Shown here: positions 58,063 to 59,256 of the stretch, in pieces
How positions within the stretch are numbered: the stretch's first letter is position 1
Layout of the letters: each line of letters begins with the position of its first letter
The notes under the pieces: model-generated
Databases searched by the model: none
Told to the model about the DNA's origin: nothing
Seen by the model: only the letters and a program-made list of their open reading frames with translations
Translations under genes and position numbers: made by a program
Assembly (NCBI RefSeq): GCF_036002505.1
Contig: NZ_DASYTH010000428.1
Coordinates: 76,002 to 140,001, forward strand
Length of the DNA stretch: 64,000 nt
Direction of reading: 5' to 3'
From: Actinophytocola sp.
Lineage (GTDB): Bacteria > Actinomycetota > Actinomycetes > Mycobacteriales > Pseudonocardiaceae

Positions 58063-58452
58063 TCACTCGCCGATCGGGTTGATGAGAATGTCGAAACCGG
58101 CGTACAGCTCGGGCATGACGGTTGCCACCGCGAGCCCGCCGGGGGTGATCGGGGTCGGCCGGGCGAGCGCGATCACATGGGCGACGTCGAGGGCGGCCTG
58201 CGGCGTGTACTGGCGCAGGTGGAGCAGGTCGGCGTAGGTCAGGTCGAGCGGTTCGATGGCGGGCAGCTGGGCGACCTGCTTGGCGATGCCGGGGCAGATC
58301 CGGTCGGCCGCGTCGAGGCAGGTGACCGGCGCGTAGAGCTTGGCCTCGAGGTTCGGGGCCGAGGCGATGATCGCGGACATGCTCCGGCTCGAGGCGAGCG
58401 CCGCCAGGGCGGTGGTGTCCAGGAGCAGGCCGCCGGGGTGCGACGTGGTCAC
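58063..58452 (-). CDS. PIN-like toxin candidate (pair 1)
   Basis: VTTSHPGGLLLDTTALAALASS..; paralogue of 58775..59161; GTGA overlap with the upstream antitoxin. Confidence 0.55.
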   Translation of the reverse strand: MTTSHPGGLLLDTTALAALASSRSMSAIIASAPNLEAKLYAPVTCLDAADRICPGIAKQVAQLPAIEPLDLTYADLLHLRQYTPQAALDVAHVIALARPTPITPGGLAVATVMPELYAGFDILINPIGE

Positions 58453-58733
58453 GCGCTGCCTCGCCGGGCCCGCGGGTTCTGCCGGGCGCGCCGCTCGGGT
58501 TGGCGGGTGAGCCAGGCCTCGGCCTGCGCCCGCTCCTCCGGTGTGGCCACGAATCCGAACTGCTCCCGCAGGGCGTCCTCGGTCTGCTTGGCGACGGCCG
58601 CCCATTCGGCGCGGGTGCGCTGGGCGCCGACCAGCCTGGCGACATAACCGCCGATCGTGGTGCCGTTCTCGGCCGCGAGCTGGGCCAGCCGAGCGTGCGT
58701 CTGCTCGTCGACTTTGATCATCTTCGTGCCCAC
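58449..58733 (-). CDS. RHH-type antitoxin candidate (pair 1)
   Basis: VGTKMIKVDEQTHARLAQLAAENGTTIGGYVARLV (strand-helix-helix pattern); paralogue of 59253..59540. Confidence 0.55.
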   Translation of the reverse strand: MGTKMIKVDEQTHARLAQLAAENGTTIGGYVARLVGAQRTRAEWAAVAKQTEDALREQFGFVATPEERAQAEAWLTRQPERRARQNPRARRGSA

Positions 58734-58774
58734 ACGGAGACGGTACACCATCGGTAAACCGCTCGCCCGGTGGA

Positions 58775-59161
58775 TCAGTCGCCGACCGGGTAGATCCGCA
58801 ACCGCTGCCCCTCGTACAGATCCGGCAGCACCGTGGTGACGATCAACCCGTTCGGCCACTCCTCGGTCGGCTGCGCCAAACTGATCACGTGCGCCACGTC
58901 CAGCGCGACGTCCGGGCTGCGCCGCCGCAGGTCCACCACCGCCGCATAGGTGAGGTCGACCGTCTCCACACTCGGAATCCGCCCGATGTGCCGAGCGATC
59001 CCCGGCCGGATCCGGTCCGCCGCCTCCAGGCACGTGACCGGCGCGAACAACCGCCAGTCCAGATACGGAGCATTGCTGACCAGCAAGGACATCTCATGAC
59101 TGGTGGCCAGTGCGGCCAGCGCGGAGGTGTCCAACACATAACCCCTCGCGCTATCCGTCAC
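58775..59161 (-). CDS. PIN-like toxin candidate (pair 2)
   Basis: VTDSARGYVLDTSALAALATS..LDVAHVISLAQ..IVTTVLPDLY; GTG 59161 directly after the element. Confidence 0.55.
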   Translation of the reverse strand: MTDSARGYVLDTSALAALATSHEMSLLVSNAPYLDWRLFAPVTCLEAADRIRPGIARHIGRIPSVETVDLTYAAVVDLRRRSPDVALDVAHVISLAQPTEEWPNGLIVTTVLPDLYEGQRLRIYPVGD

Positions 59162-59256
59162 GCCAACACCTCGCAAGCTCGGTGTTGGCAACCCCGGTCA
59201 CCTCGCAAGCTCGGTGACGGGGCAGTGCTTAATGGTTCGCTCGCAAGCTCGCTCAC
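59162..59256 (-). repeat. 95-nt intercistronic element, copy 3 (antitoxin|toxin)
   Basis: Minus strand GTGAGCGAGCTTGCGAGCGAACCATTAAGCACTGCCCCGTCACCGAGCTTGCGAGGTGACCGGGGTTGCCAACACCGAGCTTGCGAGGTGTTGGC. Confidence 0.9.

What the first reader, a model, noticed from the sequence alone, without database searches (positions are those of the whole stretch)
58449..59256. Filled versus empty site in paralogous antitoxin-toxin pairs: the element is an insertion at a GTGA stop/start overlap
Pair 1 (58449..58733 / 58063..58452) and pair 2 (59253..59540 / 58775..59161) are clear paralogues. Compare KMIKVDEQTHARL with KVIEVDERTHALL, and LLLDTTALAALASS with YVLDTSALAALATS. In pair 1 the antitoxin stop and toxin start overlap as gcGTGAcc (58449-58452, minus strand). 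In pair 2 the same junction reads gcGTGA-[91 nt]-gcGTGAcg. The 95-nt element is therefore present there, and GTGA (possibly GCGTGA) flanks it on both sides like a target-site duplication. The rpiB copy also has GCGTGA on both sides, while the pqq copy has CGGTGA and GCATGA. This in-window comparison argues that the element is or was mobile and prefers 4-nt stop/start overlaps. Separating toxin from antitoxin by 95 nt of structured RNA could change their translation ratio.
Basis: seen in the sequence. Interest (0 to 1): 0.8.

Follow-up and report, generated by a model that had tools for sequence, protein, structure and literature searches.

The report
Mini-ORF repeat inserted between coupled genes
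A ~95-base repeated element sits exactly at the overlapping stop/start codons (GTGA) of a toxin-antitoxin pair and two other operons, with its own overlapping start and stop so translation can pass across it; it behaves like the MIRU repeats of mycobacteria but is a different, apparently undescribed family found in many other actinobacteria.

Summary
Pair 1 overlaps in a single GTGA (58449-58452). Its paralogue, pair 2, has GTGA + 91 nt + GTGA (59158-59256). Two more copies lie between pqqE/pqqB and between rpiB and a membrane-protein gene. Related genomes settle the direction. All three sites are empty, with a single GTGA, in relatives at 64-83% protein identity. They are filled in relatives at 95-98%, and one of those carries two tandem units. 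So this is a derived, precise insertion with variable copy number.

Its GTG overlaps the upstream TGA, and its TGA overlaps the downstream start. In a capped genome scan, 83 of 113 copies from many actinobacterial genera have this layout. The 3' hairpin covaries and contains the downstream ribosome-binding site.

This matches the published description of MIRUs: intercistronic, overlapping ORF, tetranucleotide repeats, filled and empty sites, tandem arrays. No sequence similarity to MIRU motifs was detectable, there is no Rfam match, and no paper containing the core sequence was found.

The flanking GTGA repeats are therefore functional stop/start signals as well as possible target duplications. 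A true target-site duplication and a transposase remain unproven. I file it as a new member of a known kind, of moderate interest.

The parts
59158..59256 (-). Element copy between antitoxin 2 and toxin 2, including both GTGA. It reads as a 32-codon mini-ORF (VSELASEPLSTAPSPSLRGDRGCQHRACEVLA*).
   Evidence: nhmmer E 1.6e-31.
59253..59256 (-). 5' GTGA: antitoxin-2 stop TGA overlapping the GTG start of the mini-ORF.
59223..59252 (-). Conserved 5' module GCGAGCTTGCGAGC GAACCATTAAGCACTG. The first 14 nt could form a C-GA-G/CUUG mini-hairpin; this is inferred only.
   Evidence: The columns are invariant, so covariation cannot test the hairpin, and its predicted energy alone is weak.
59192..59222 (-). 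Hairpin 1: variable stem CCCCGTCAC/GTGACCGGGG capped by CGAGCTTGCGAG.
   Evidence: -16.9 kcal/mol, z -3.1; compensatory changes between copies.
59162..59189 (-). Hairpin 2: stem GCCAACAC/GTGTTGGC capped by CGAGCTTGCGAG. It contains the GAGG ribosome-binding site and ends right at the toxin start codon.
   Evidence: -17.4 kcal/mol, z -3.6; covariation.
59158..59161 (-). 3' GTGA: mini-ORF stop TGA overlapping the toxin-2 GTG start.
59253..59540 (-). Antitoxin 2 (95 aa, weak ribbon-helix-helix signal).
58775..59161 (-). Toxin 2 (128 aa); predicted fold is a PIN/VapC-like nuclease.
58449..58452 (-). Empty site: a single GTGA shared by antitoxin 1 (stop) and toxin 1 (start).
58449..58733 (-). Antitoxin 1 (94 aa), paralogue of antitoxin 2.
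58063..58452 (-). Toxin 1 (129 aa), paralogue of toxin 2.
21372..21470 (+). Element copy between pqqE (20179-21375) and pqqB (21467-22339). 5' GTGA, 3' ATGA, 32-codon mini-ORF.
   Evidence: Orthologue L113 is filled; L114 and L115 are empty.
39550..39648 (+). Element copy between rpiB (39113-39553) and a membrane-protein gene (39645-40007). GTGA at both ends, 32-codon mini-ORF.
   Evidence: Orthologue L116 is filled; L117 and L118 are empty.

Best explanation
The element is a small non-autonomous repeat of the MIRU type: an intercistronic 'relay' element.

Shown:
- It inserted precisely at the 4-nt stop/start overlap (GTGA) of genes that are translated as a coupled pair.
- It rebuilds that overlap at both of its ends.

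Inferred mechanism:
- Ribosomes finishing the upstream gene (the antitoxin) stop at a TGA that overlaps the element's own GTG.
- They translate a 25-32-codon mini-ORF through the element. This melts its hairpins, including the 3' hairpin that holds the downstream ribosome-binding site (GAGG) and the spacer.
- They stop at a TGA that overlaps the start codon of the downstream gene (the toxin) and restart there.
- Coupling is therefore kept, probably at lower efficiency. This would explain why insertions survive almost only at such junctions and only in the sense orientation.

Further points:
- Each insertion recreates an NTGA junction at both ends, so arrays can grow or shrink (one unit here, two in a 97%-identical relative).
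- How copies are made is unknown.
For: Anatomy:
- The three window copies share TGA + GCGAGCTTGCGAGCGAACCATT... + two hairpins with the same CGAGCnTGCGAG cap + RTGA.
- All three are open for exactly 32 codons from the GTG of the 5' GTGA to the TGA of the 3' RTGA.

Family:
- A capped genome scan returned 108 loci. They come from Kutzneria, Actinophytocola, Pseudonocardia, Amycolatopsis, Kibdelosporangium, Nocardia, Nocardioidaceae, Actinospica, Phytohabitans and others.
- Of 113 copies, 90 close the frame within 130 nt, and 83 of those end in [AGT]TGA.
- Mini-ORF lengths cluster at 75 and 78 nt.
- The full relay layout with a downstream ORF of at least 60 codons occurs in 72 of 115 copies in frame 0, against 18 and 11 in the other two frames.
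- Tandem units are often in frame or joined by NTGA.

Structure:
- The 3' hairpin that encloses GAGG and the spacer before the start codon is 78% paired, against 28-46% in slid controls. Its covariation score is 0.338 against 0.14 in shuffles, reached by 0 of 500 shuffles. Many pairs are G.U.
- The window-type hairpins are 92% paired, with 8 pairs showing compensatory change.

Insertion polarity:
- Empty single-GTGA sites are seen in more distant relatives and filled sites in close ones, at all three loci.
- Copy number varies: L109 has two units where the window has one, and L001 has two where L032 has one.

Constraint:
- Orthologous element copies are 96.7-97.8% identical. Third-codon-position identity in the flanking genes is 84-94% at the TA and rpiB sites.

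Precedent:
- MIRUs are described with the same features (PMC3184786).
Against: - Nothing here shows that the mini-ORF is translated.
- 30 of 113 copies lack the relay layout. Some are truncated and fused in frame to the downstream gene, and some end in TAG or TAA.
- In L109 the second tandem unit is 94 nt. Its frame overshoots the toxin start and stops 8 nt inside the toxin gene.
- Hairpin energies are better than shuffles for the TA copy, but not for hairpin 2 of the pqq and rpiB copies (whole-element z -2.6, -0.7, -3.9).
- The invariance of the 5' module is partly an artefact of ascertainment, because the scan pattern required it.
- The control frames are not empty (18 and 11).
- The higher conservation of the element than of synonymous sites could come from gene conversion between copies rather than from function.
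Confidence: 0.7

Rival explanations
1. The element is a classical MITE-like transposon. A transposase elsewhere in the genome cuts at GTGA and makes a 4-nt target-site duplication. The stop/start overlap is simply the sequence it prefers.
For: - Insertions are precise, with a single GTGA in the empty sites and GTGA...NTGA in the filled sites at three loci.
- The 5' tetranucleotide is GTGA in 88 of 90 copies.
- All three ancestral targets were GTGA.
- Orthologous copies L013 and L052 differ GTGA vs ATGA at the 3' end, so mismatched flanks can arise by mutation after insertion.
- Lineage-specific subfamilies suggest bursts of copying.
Against: - The flanks differ in 25 of 83 copies.
- Three independent sites have repeats of 13-15 nt, not a fixed length.
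- There are no terminal inverted repeats.
- Only the sense orientation is seen.
- No candidate transposase was looked for or found.
- The element was not found on plasmids or phages.
- Selection for stop/start codons explains the repeats without any duplication.
Confidence: 0.2
2. The element is mainly a functional cis-acting RNA module. Examples would be a binding site for a protein or RNase, an mRNA stabiliser like REP/BIME, or a switch between alternative hairpins. On this reading the cell has recruited it to set the expression ratio of neighbouring genes, and mobility is secondary.
For: - The hairpins covary and have many G.U pairs on the sense strand.
- The cap CGAGC-NNNN-GCGAG with tandem G.A is conserved.
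- In the 78-nt variant, two mutually exclusive helices share columns 49-54, and both score above their controls.
- The element is more conserved than synonymous sites at 2 of 3 loci.
- Solo hairpins with the same cap occur at 33346-33373 and 55639-55666.
Against: - Presence or absence differs between close relatives at unrelated operons (TA, pqq, rpiB), which argues against a specific regulatory need.
- There is no Rfam family.
- No partner protein is known.
- Copy number varies at one and the same site.
Confidence: 0.25
3. The 95-nt version is ancestral, and pair 1 and the other empty sites lost it by precise deletion between the two GTGA repeats.
For: Copy number does go down as well as up in tandem arrays (window 1 unit vs L109 2 units; L032 1 vs L001 2). 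A 4-nt repeat could mediate deletion.
Against: - At all three loci the empty state is found in the more distant relatives (64-83% identity), and the filled state only in the closest (95-98%).
- Of the toxin homologues looked at beyond the 97% relative, the three loci fetched (L110, L111, L112) are all empty.
- Several independent precise deletions would be needed.
Confidence: 0.04

Closest known systems
MIRU (mycobacterial interspersed repetitive units; Supply et al. 1997, as summarised in the review PMC3184786)
   Same: - 40-100-bp units lie in intercistronic regions of operons.
- Each unit carries an ORF whose ends overlap the stop and start of the flanking genes.
- Tetranucleotide direct repeats occur at filled sites and not at empty ones.
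- Internal GC-rich inverted repeats are present.
- Tandem arrays vary in copy number between close relatives.
- No transposase is known.
- The host is an actinobacterium.
   Different: - No detectable sequence similarity to the two published MIRU motifs (p 0.2-0.9 against dinucleotide shuffles).
- The hosts are Pseudonocardiaceae and other non-mycobacterial actinobacteria.
- It has a highly conserved 5' module, and hairpin caps CGAGC-NNNN-GCGAG with tandem G.A.
- A covarying 3' hairpin holds the downstream ribosome-binding site.
REP / BIME elements of enterobacteria and pseudomonads (RAYT-associated)
   Same: Short, GC-rich, hairpin-forming repeats that are transcribed within operons. Modular hairpin units also occur singly. 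They probably affect mRNA stability or downstream expression.
   Different: REPs lie after stop codons without rebuilding stop/start overlaps, carry no relay ORF, occur in both orientations, and have a GTAG-type head recognised by RAYT transposases. None of these features is seen here.
MITEs such as the Correia/NEMIS elements of Neisseria, and the RPEs of Rickettsia
   Same: Non-autonomous, structured small repeats with defined short flanking repeats. They are co-transcribed with genes. RPEs are tolerated because they keep reading frames open.
   Different: Those elements have terminal inverted repeats (Correia) or insert inside genes in frame (RPE). This element has no terminal inverted repeats and sits between genes exactly at a stop/start overlap.
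VapBC type II toxin-antitoxin modules (the genes interrupted here)
   Same: The toxin's predicted fold matches the PIN domains of VapC toxins (TM 0.55-0.68). A small upstream gene has a weak ribbon-helix-helix signal, and the ancestral state is a 4-nt overlap.
   Different: No Pfam or NCBIfam model reaches its threshold. The family is small (33 clusters, all from Pseudonocardiaceae and Actinophytocola). Toxicity is untested.

Membership tests
MIRU | Unit of 40-100 bp located between co-directional genes of an operon | tested here: met
   Units of about 70-99 nt. The upstream open frame is at least 60 codons in 66 of 83 copies, and the downstream ORF in 72 of 83. Window copies lie between antitoxin/toxin, pqqE/pqqB and rpiB/membrane gene.
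MIRU | The unit contains an ORF whose start and stop overlap the stop and start of the flanking genes | tested here: met
   83 of the 90 copies that close within 130 nt end in [AGT]TGA, and the 5' end is GTGA in 88 of 90. Frame 0 has the layout in 72 of 115 copies, against 18 and 11 in the control frames.
MIRU | Empty and filled sites with tetranucleotide direct repeats | tested here: met
   Three loci: single GTGA in L111, L114, L115, L117 and L118; GTGA...NTGA in the window and in L109, L113 and L116.
MIRU | Tandem arrays with copy-number variation between close relatives (VNTR behaviour) | tested here: met
   Window has 1 unit and L109 has 2 at the same site (toxin 97% identical). L032 has 1 and L001 has 2. 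Arrays of 3 units in L017 and L018.
MIRU | Sequence similarity to the MIRU consensus | tested here: not met
   Local alignment to MIRU motifs A and B (from PMC6286618) is no better than dinucleotide shuffles, p 0.2-0.9. This is a limited test, because only two short published motifs were available.
MIRU | Found in Mycobacterium | tested here: inconclusive
MIRU | Co-transcribed in a polycistronic mRNA | not testable with these tools
   Needs RNA data.
MITE (transposase-mobilised) | Terminal inverted repeats | tested here: not met
   The two ends carry the same motif in direct orientation. The motif GCUUGCGAGC is self-complementary only when two G.U pairs are allowed, i.e. at the RNA level.
MITE (transposase-mobilised) | Target-site duplication of fixed length | tested here: inconclusive
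   NTGA is at both ends, but the two differ in 25 of 83 copies. Extension beyond NTGA is near the null. Three independent sites have 13-15 nt.
MITE (transposase-mobilised) | Cognate autonomous element or transposase in the genome | not tested
   Only a 64-kb window was available. No genome-wide search or phylogenetic profiling was possible.
REP/BIME (RAYT-associated) | Imperfect palindrome with a conserved GTAG-type head, extragenic, in both orientations, with a RAYT gene present | tested here: not met
   No such head. Copies are only in the sense orientation at stop/start overlaps. A RAYT gene was not searched for.
Any Rfam RNA family | Match to a curated covariance model | tested here: not met
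   No hit at gathering score in the window. At E up to 10, the only hit on the element is a chance snoRNA match.
VapBC toxin-antitoxin (flanking genes) | PIN-fold toxin preceded by a small DNA-binding antitoxin | tested here: inconclusive
   AlphaFold2 model has pLDDT 89. The top Foldseek hits in the PDB are all VapC/PIN toxins, but at E about 2e-3 and TM 0.55-0.68. No Pfam or NCBIfam hit for the toxin, and antitoxin ribbon-helix-helix hits are below threshold.

The most novel reading that the evidence does not exclude
The family is copied by a dedicated, still unknown mechanism that recognises the conserved 5' module and targets GTGA stop/start overlaps. This could be a new recombinase, or a process linked to transcription or translation that would explain the strict sense orientation. 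The element might also have been recruited as a module that enforces translational coupling by hiding the downstream ribosome-binding site. If so, it would explain how MIRU-type elements spread, which has been open since 1997, and would define a new class of mobile element that needs translated junctions.
Probability: 0.15. Interest if true: 0.8.

Novelty: new member of a known kind. Interest (0 to 1): 0.5.

Why it matters
MIRUs have been used for tuberculosis typing for decades. One review still describes them as found only in mycobacteria (PMC6286618), and the way they spread is still not known.

This family has the same architecture but an unrelated sequence. It is widespread in non-pathogenic actinobacteria, many of them culturable, and several sites are polymorphic between filled, empty and tandem states. 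That gives a tractable system for two questions: how such elements move, and what they do to translational coupling. It also gives natural tests of how much a toxin can be uncoupled from its antitoxin.

There is a practical point too. These elements create short spurious ORFs, shift start-codon calls, and sometimes add a 'VSELASEP' N-terminus to real proteins, so genome annotators should know about them.

Tried and rejected
- Rfam at gathering score on the window, and at E up to 10 on the element: nothing.
- Literature search for the core sequence and for 'MIRU-like' elements in other actinobacteria: nothing relevant.
- Sequence homology to MIRU motifs: not better than shuffles, so membership by sequence was rejected.
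- A 6-nt GCGTGA duplication: a 2-nt extension beyond NTGA is close to the null distribution, so rejected as a general feature.
- RNAalifold on the 78-nt copies returned only the small invariant hairpins. Structures written by hand were then tested by pair counting.
- The 5' 14-nt hairpin has no energetic support (-1.4 kcal/mol). Its columns never vary, so it remains an inference.
- Plasmid and phage collections: no copy.
- A crude GC3-based gene call to count the other NTGA junctions in the window missed short genes. It gives only a lower bound of at least 4 empty junctions.
- The source genome was not among the fetched loci. The best match was an Actinophytocola MAG at 80% nucleotide identity.
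- Deletion-in-pair-1 scenario: rejected on the polarity given by the outgroups.
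Full report
**1. Observation**

All coordinates are on the minus strand. Antitoxin 1 (58449-58733) and toxin 1 (58063-58452) share the four bases GTGA at 58449-58452. In pair 2, antitoxin 2 (59253-59540) ends in gcGTGA. 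Exactly 91 nt follow (59162-59252), and then a second gcGTGA starts toxin 2 (58775-59161).

- The pairs are old paralogues: the toxins are 54% identical and the antitoxins 50%.
- Two further copies lie at 21372-21470 (+), between pqqE and pqqB, and at 39550-39648 (+), between rpiB and a membrane-protein gene.
- A profile of the copies finds exactly these three in 64 kb, at E 1e-29 to 1e-31. The 19-nt core occurs 3 times against 0.02 expected.

**2. Anatomy**

Each window copy reads as follows:
- GTGA;
- a conserved 5' module, GCGAGCTTGCGAGC GAACCATTnArCACTG;
- hairpin 1, and then hairpin 2;
- GC, and then RTGA.

Both hairpins have stems that differ between copies but stay complementary, and both are capped by the same 12-mer, CGAGCnTGCGAG.

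Reading starts at the GTG of the 5' GTGA, which overlaps the upstream TGA. All three copies then stay open for exactly 32 codons and end at the TGA of the 3' RTGA, which overlaps the downstream start. In the rpiB copy, a 1-nt deletion and a 1-nt insertion compensate each other and keep this frame.

**3. A large family**

They come from Kutzneria, Actinophytocola, Pseudonocardia, Amycolatopsis, Kibdelosporangium, Sciscionella, Actinokineospora, Labedaea, Nocardia, Nocardioidaceae, Actinospica, Phytohabitans, Actinoplanes and an Acidimicrobiia MAG. The source genome is not among them; the best match is an Actinophytocola MAG at 80% nucleotide identity.

Among 113 copies:
- 90 close the frame within 130 nt, and 83 of those end in [AGT]TGA.
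- The 5' tetranucleotide is GTGA in 88 of 90. It was not part of the search pattern.
- The 3' tetranucleotide is GTGA in 56, ATGA in 25 and TTGA in 2.
- Mini-ORF lengths cluster at 78 nt (47 copies) and 75 nt (20 copies).
- The full layout, with a downstream ORF of at least 60 codons, occurs in 72 of 115 copies in frame 0, against 18 and 11 in the other two frames.
- The upstream frame is a long ORF that ends at the element's TGA in most copies.
- All copies lie in the sense orientation of their flanking genes.

Lineages have their own variants. Kutzneria copies share one central hairpin, K. viridogrisea copies another, and the window and Actinophytocola copies have the two-hairpin 95-nt form. 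This is what bursts of copying would produce.

**4. Structure**

*78-nt variant (44 distinct copies, alignment A2).* A long 3' hairpin is well supported. Its cap is CGAGC-NNNN-GCGAG with a tandem G.A. Its lower stem pairs an inner strand with the spacer that ends right at the start codon.
- It is 78% paired, against 28-46% when the partners are slid.
- The covariation score is 0.338 against 0.14 in shuffles, reached by 0 of 500 shuffles.
- 69 cells changed on both sides, and many pairs are G.U.

The GAGG ribosome-binding site of the downstream gene lies inside this hairpin. A central hairpin that uses some of the same bases is also above its controls, so the two may be alternatives. This is noted but not resolved.

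*Window variant (10 copies, alignment A3).* The two hairpins are 92% paired, with 8 pairs showing compensatory change, against 25-52% paired in slid controls.

*Energies.* They are clearly better than shuffles for the TA copy (-17.4 and -16.9 kcal/mol, z -3.6 and -3.1). They are not better for hairpin 2 of the other two copies. Covariation is therefore the stronger evidence.

G.U pairs on the sense strand point to RNA rather than DNA as the folded molecule.

**5. Direction of the change**

| Site | Filled (closest relatives) | Empty (more distant relatives) |
|---|---|---|
| TA | L109 (toxin 97% identical): two tandem units, GTGA-unit-TTGA-unit-GTGA, with pair 1 beside it still overlapping | L110 (74%, same neighbourhood, single pair): TAA/ATG 1-nt overlap; L111 and L112 (64%): gcGTGAcc |
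| pqq | L113 (PqqB 95%): filled, same ends as the window | L114 (79%): ccGGTGAagg; L115 (75%): cccGGTGAagg; a 78% relative has a 4-nt overlap by coordinates |
| rpiB | L116 (98%): filled | L117 (83%): gcGTGAtc; L118 (71%): tcGTGAtc |

The empty state is therefore ancestral at all three loci, the insertion is exact, and all three targets were GTGA.

The two units of L109 are only 87% identical to each other. The array is therefore either old or the result of a second insertion into the junction that the first insertion regenerated.

**6. Is GTGA a target-site duplication?**

It could be, but the data do not require it.

For:
- The insertions are precise.
- The targets were GTGA.
- The orthologues L013 and L052 (92% identical over 5 kb) differ GTGA vs ATGA at the 3' end. 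Mismatched flanks can therefore arise after insertion.

Against:
- The flanks differ in 25 of 83 copies.
- Identity beyond NTGA is near the null (50% have none, against 62% expected), so 'GCGTGA' is not general.
- Three independent non-tandem sites (L001/L032, L050, L095) instead have 13-15-nt repeats that span the ribosome-binding site, the spacer and GTGA. That looks more like microhomology than a fixed staggered cut.
- At the pqq site the outgroups have GTGA, while the filled site has GTGA...ATGA.

Both tetranucleotides are working stop/start signals, so selection alone would keep them.

**7. Constraint**

Orthologous element copies (window against L113, L116 and L109 unit 2) are 97.8%, 97.8% and 96.7% identical. 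Third-codon-position identity in the flanking genes is 93-98% at pqq, 85-94% at rpiB and the membrane gene, and 84-87% at the TA pair. At two of the three sites the element changes more slowly than synonymous sites. Function or gene conversion could explain this.

**8. The interrupted genes**

- The toxin family is small: 33 clusters, all from Pseudonocardiaceae and Actinophytocola. It has no Pfam or NCBIfam hit.
- An AlphaFold2 model (pLDDT 89) matches VapC/PIN toxins in the PDB. All top hits are of this type, with TM 0.55-0.68 and E about 2e-3.
- The antitoxins give only sub-threshold ribbon-helix-helix hits.

'VapBC-like' is reasonable but unproven.

An insertion that weakens translation of the toxin relative to the antitoxin would be harmless. 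That fits its survival at this site (inference).

**9. Comparison with known systems**

The review PMC3184786 describes MIRUs as follows:
- 40-100-bp units in a polycistronic intergenic region;
- ORFs whose ends overlap the adjacent genes;
- internal GC-rich inverted repeats;
- filled against empty sites with tetranucleotide direct repeats.

Tandem arrays of variable copy number, the property used in MIRU-VNTR typing, are seen here as well.

However, two published MIRU motifs (PMC6286618) align no better than shuffles, and no Mycobacterium appeared in the capped scan. The element therefore works like a MIRU, but membership of the MIRU sequence family is not shown.

It is not a MITE in the usual sense, because it has no terminal inverted repeats and only one orientation. 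It is not a REP/BIME either. It is not in Rfam, not on plasmids or phages in the collections searched, and its core sequence appears in no searchable paper.

**10. Mechanism**

The steps below are inferred, not shown. Ribosomes finishing the upstream gene restart at the overlapping GTG and translate the mini-ORF. This opens the hairpins, including the one that hides the ribosome-binding site. They then stop at the TGA that overlaps the next start codon and restart there. This would keep coupling, and it would explain the sense-only orientation and the junction-only distribution as survivorship. How copies are made remains unknown.

Points against a strict relay:
- 30 of 113 copies do not fit. 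Some are truncated and fused in frame to the next gene, as in L004 against its full orthologue L010.
- The second unit of L109 is out of frame by one base.

**11. Limits**

Taxonomic range and 5' conservation are therefore lower and upper bounds respectively.
- No whole-genome census, transposase search or expression data were available.
- The count of other NTGA junctions in the window (at least 4 empty against 3 filled) comes from a crude gene call.

Noticed in passing
window 57207-58237 (+) and 59550-60280 (+); L109:1881-2780: The two TA pairs are flanked by DUF559-type endonuclease genes. The copy next to toxin 1 is split into two frames at 57572, whereas the 97%-related contig L109 has one intact 299-aa gene. 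The copy beyond antitoxin 2 looks degraded across several frames.
   Followed up: partly
window 57998-58034, and 60270-60286: A 17-bp inverted repeat (GGGCTCGTTAGCCGCGC / GCGCGGCTTACGAGCCC) lies between the convergent toxin 1 and DUF559 genes. A half-copy sits at the end of the second DUF559 remnant. It may be a terminator or part of the duplicated DUF559 module.
   Followed up: partly
window 33346-33373 (-) and 55639-55666 (+): Two solo hairpins carry the same cap as the element's hairpins (GAGCTTGCGA / GGGCTTGCGA) with 8-9-bp stems, outside any full element. The first begins right at an ATGA stop. The hairpin may therefore be a module that also occurs alone, as REP units do within BIMEs.
   Followed up: partly
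L004 vs L010; also L028/L082, L031, L073, L077, L103, L049: In several genomes only the 5' module survives, fused in frame to the downstream gene. This gives real proteins (hydrogenase maturation protease, a TetR regulator, a copper ATPase) an N-terminal 'VSELASEP...' extension. L004 and L010 are orthologous sites (87% identical) with the truncated and the full element.
   Followed up: partly
L001/L032, L050, L095: Three independent non-tandem copies are flanked by 13-15-nt direct repeats covering the ribosome-binding site, spacer and GTGA (for example ggaggattcGTGA) rather than 4 nt. In L032 the spacer does not pair into the 3' hairpin. This would fit a recent insertion through microhomology.
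   Followed up: partly
A2 columns 38-54 vs 49-79 (78-nt variant in other genera): Two mutually exclusive helices share columns 49-54, and both score above their controls. The spacer before the start codon resembles the 5' arm of the central hairpin, so the RNA might switch between the two.
   Followed up: partly
L013 (record titled Rhodococcus rhodnii NRRL B-16535) vs L052 (Kibdelosporangium aridum): The two contigs are 92% identical over 5 kb. That is unexpected for different orders and suggests a mislabelled or contaminated assembly. L095 is similar: a 2.3-kb contig binned as the myxobacterium Labilithrix luteola carries the element and is probably a binning error.
   Followed up: no
window 38357-39096 (+): A Phd/YefM-like antitoxin and a PIN/VapC-like toxin lie directly upstream of rpiB and overlap by TTGA (38686-38689). 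This is an unoccupied junction about 500 bp from the occupied rpiB junction. The same pair is present in L116, where Pfam labels the two genes PhdYeFM_antitox and PIN.
   Followed up: no
window 19823-22339; L115: The pqq genes run pqqD-pqqE-[element]-pqqB, and the pqqD/pqqE junction (GTGA at 20306) is empty. In L115 the gene upstream of pqqB is not pqqE but two small ORFs of 42-43 aa.
   Followed up: no
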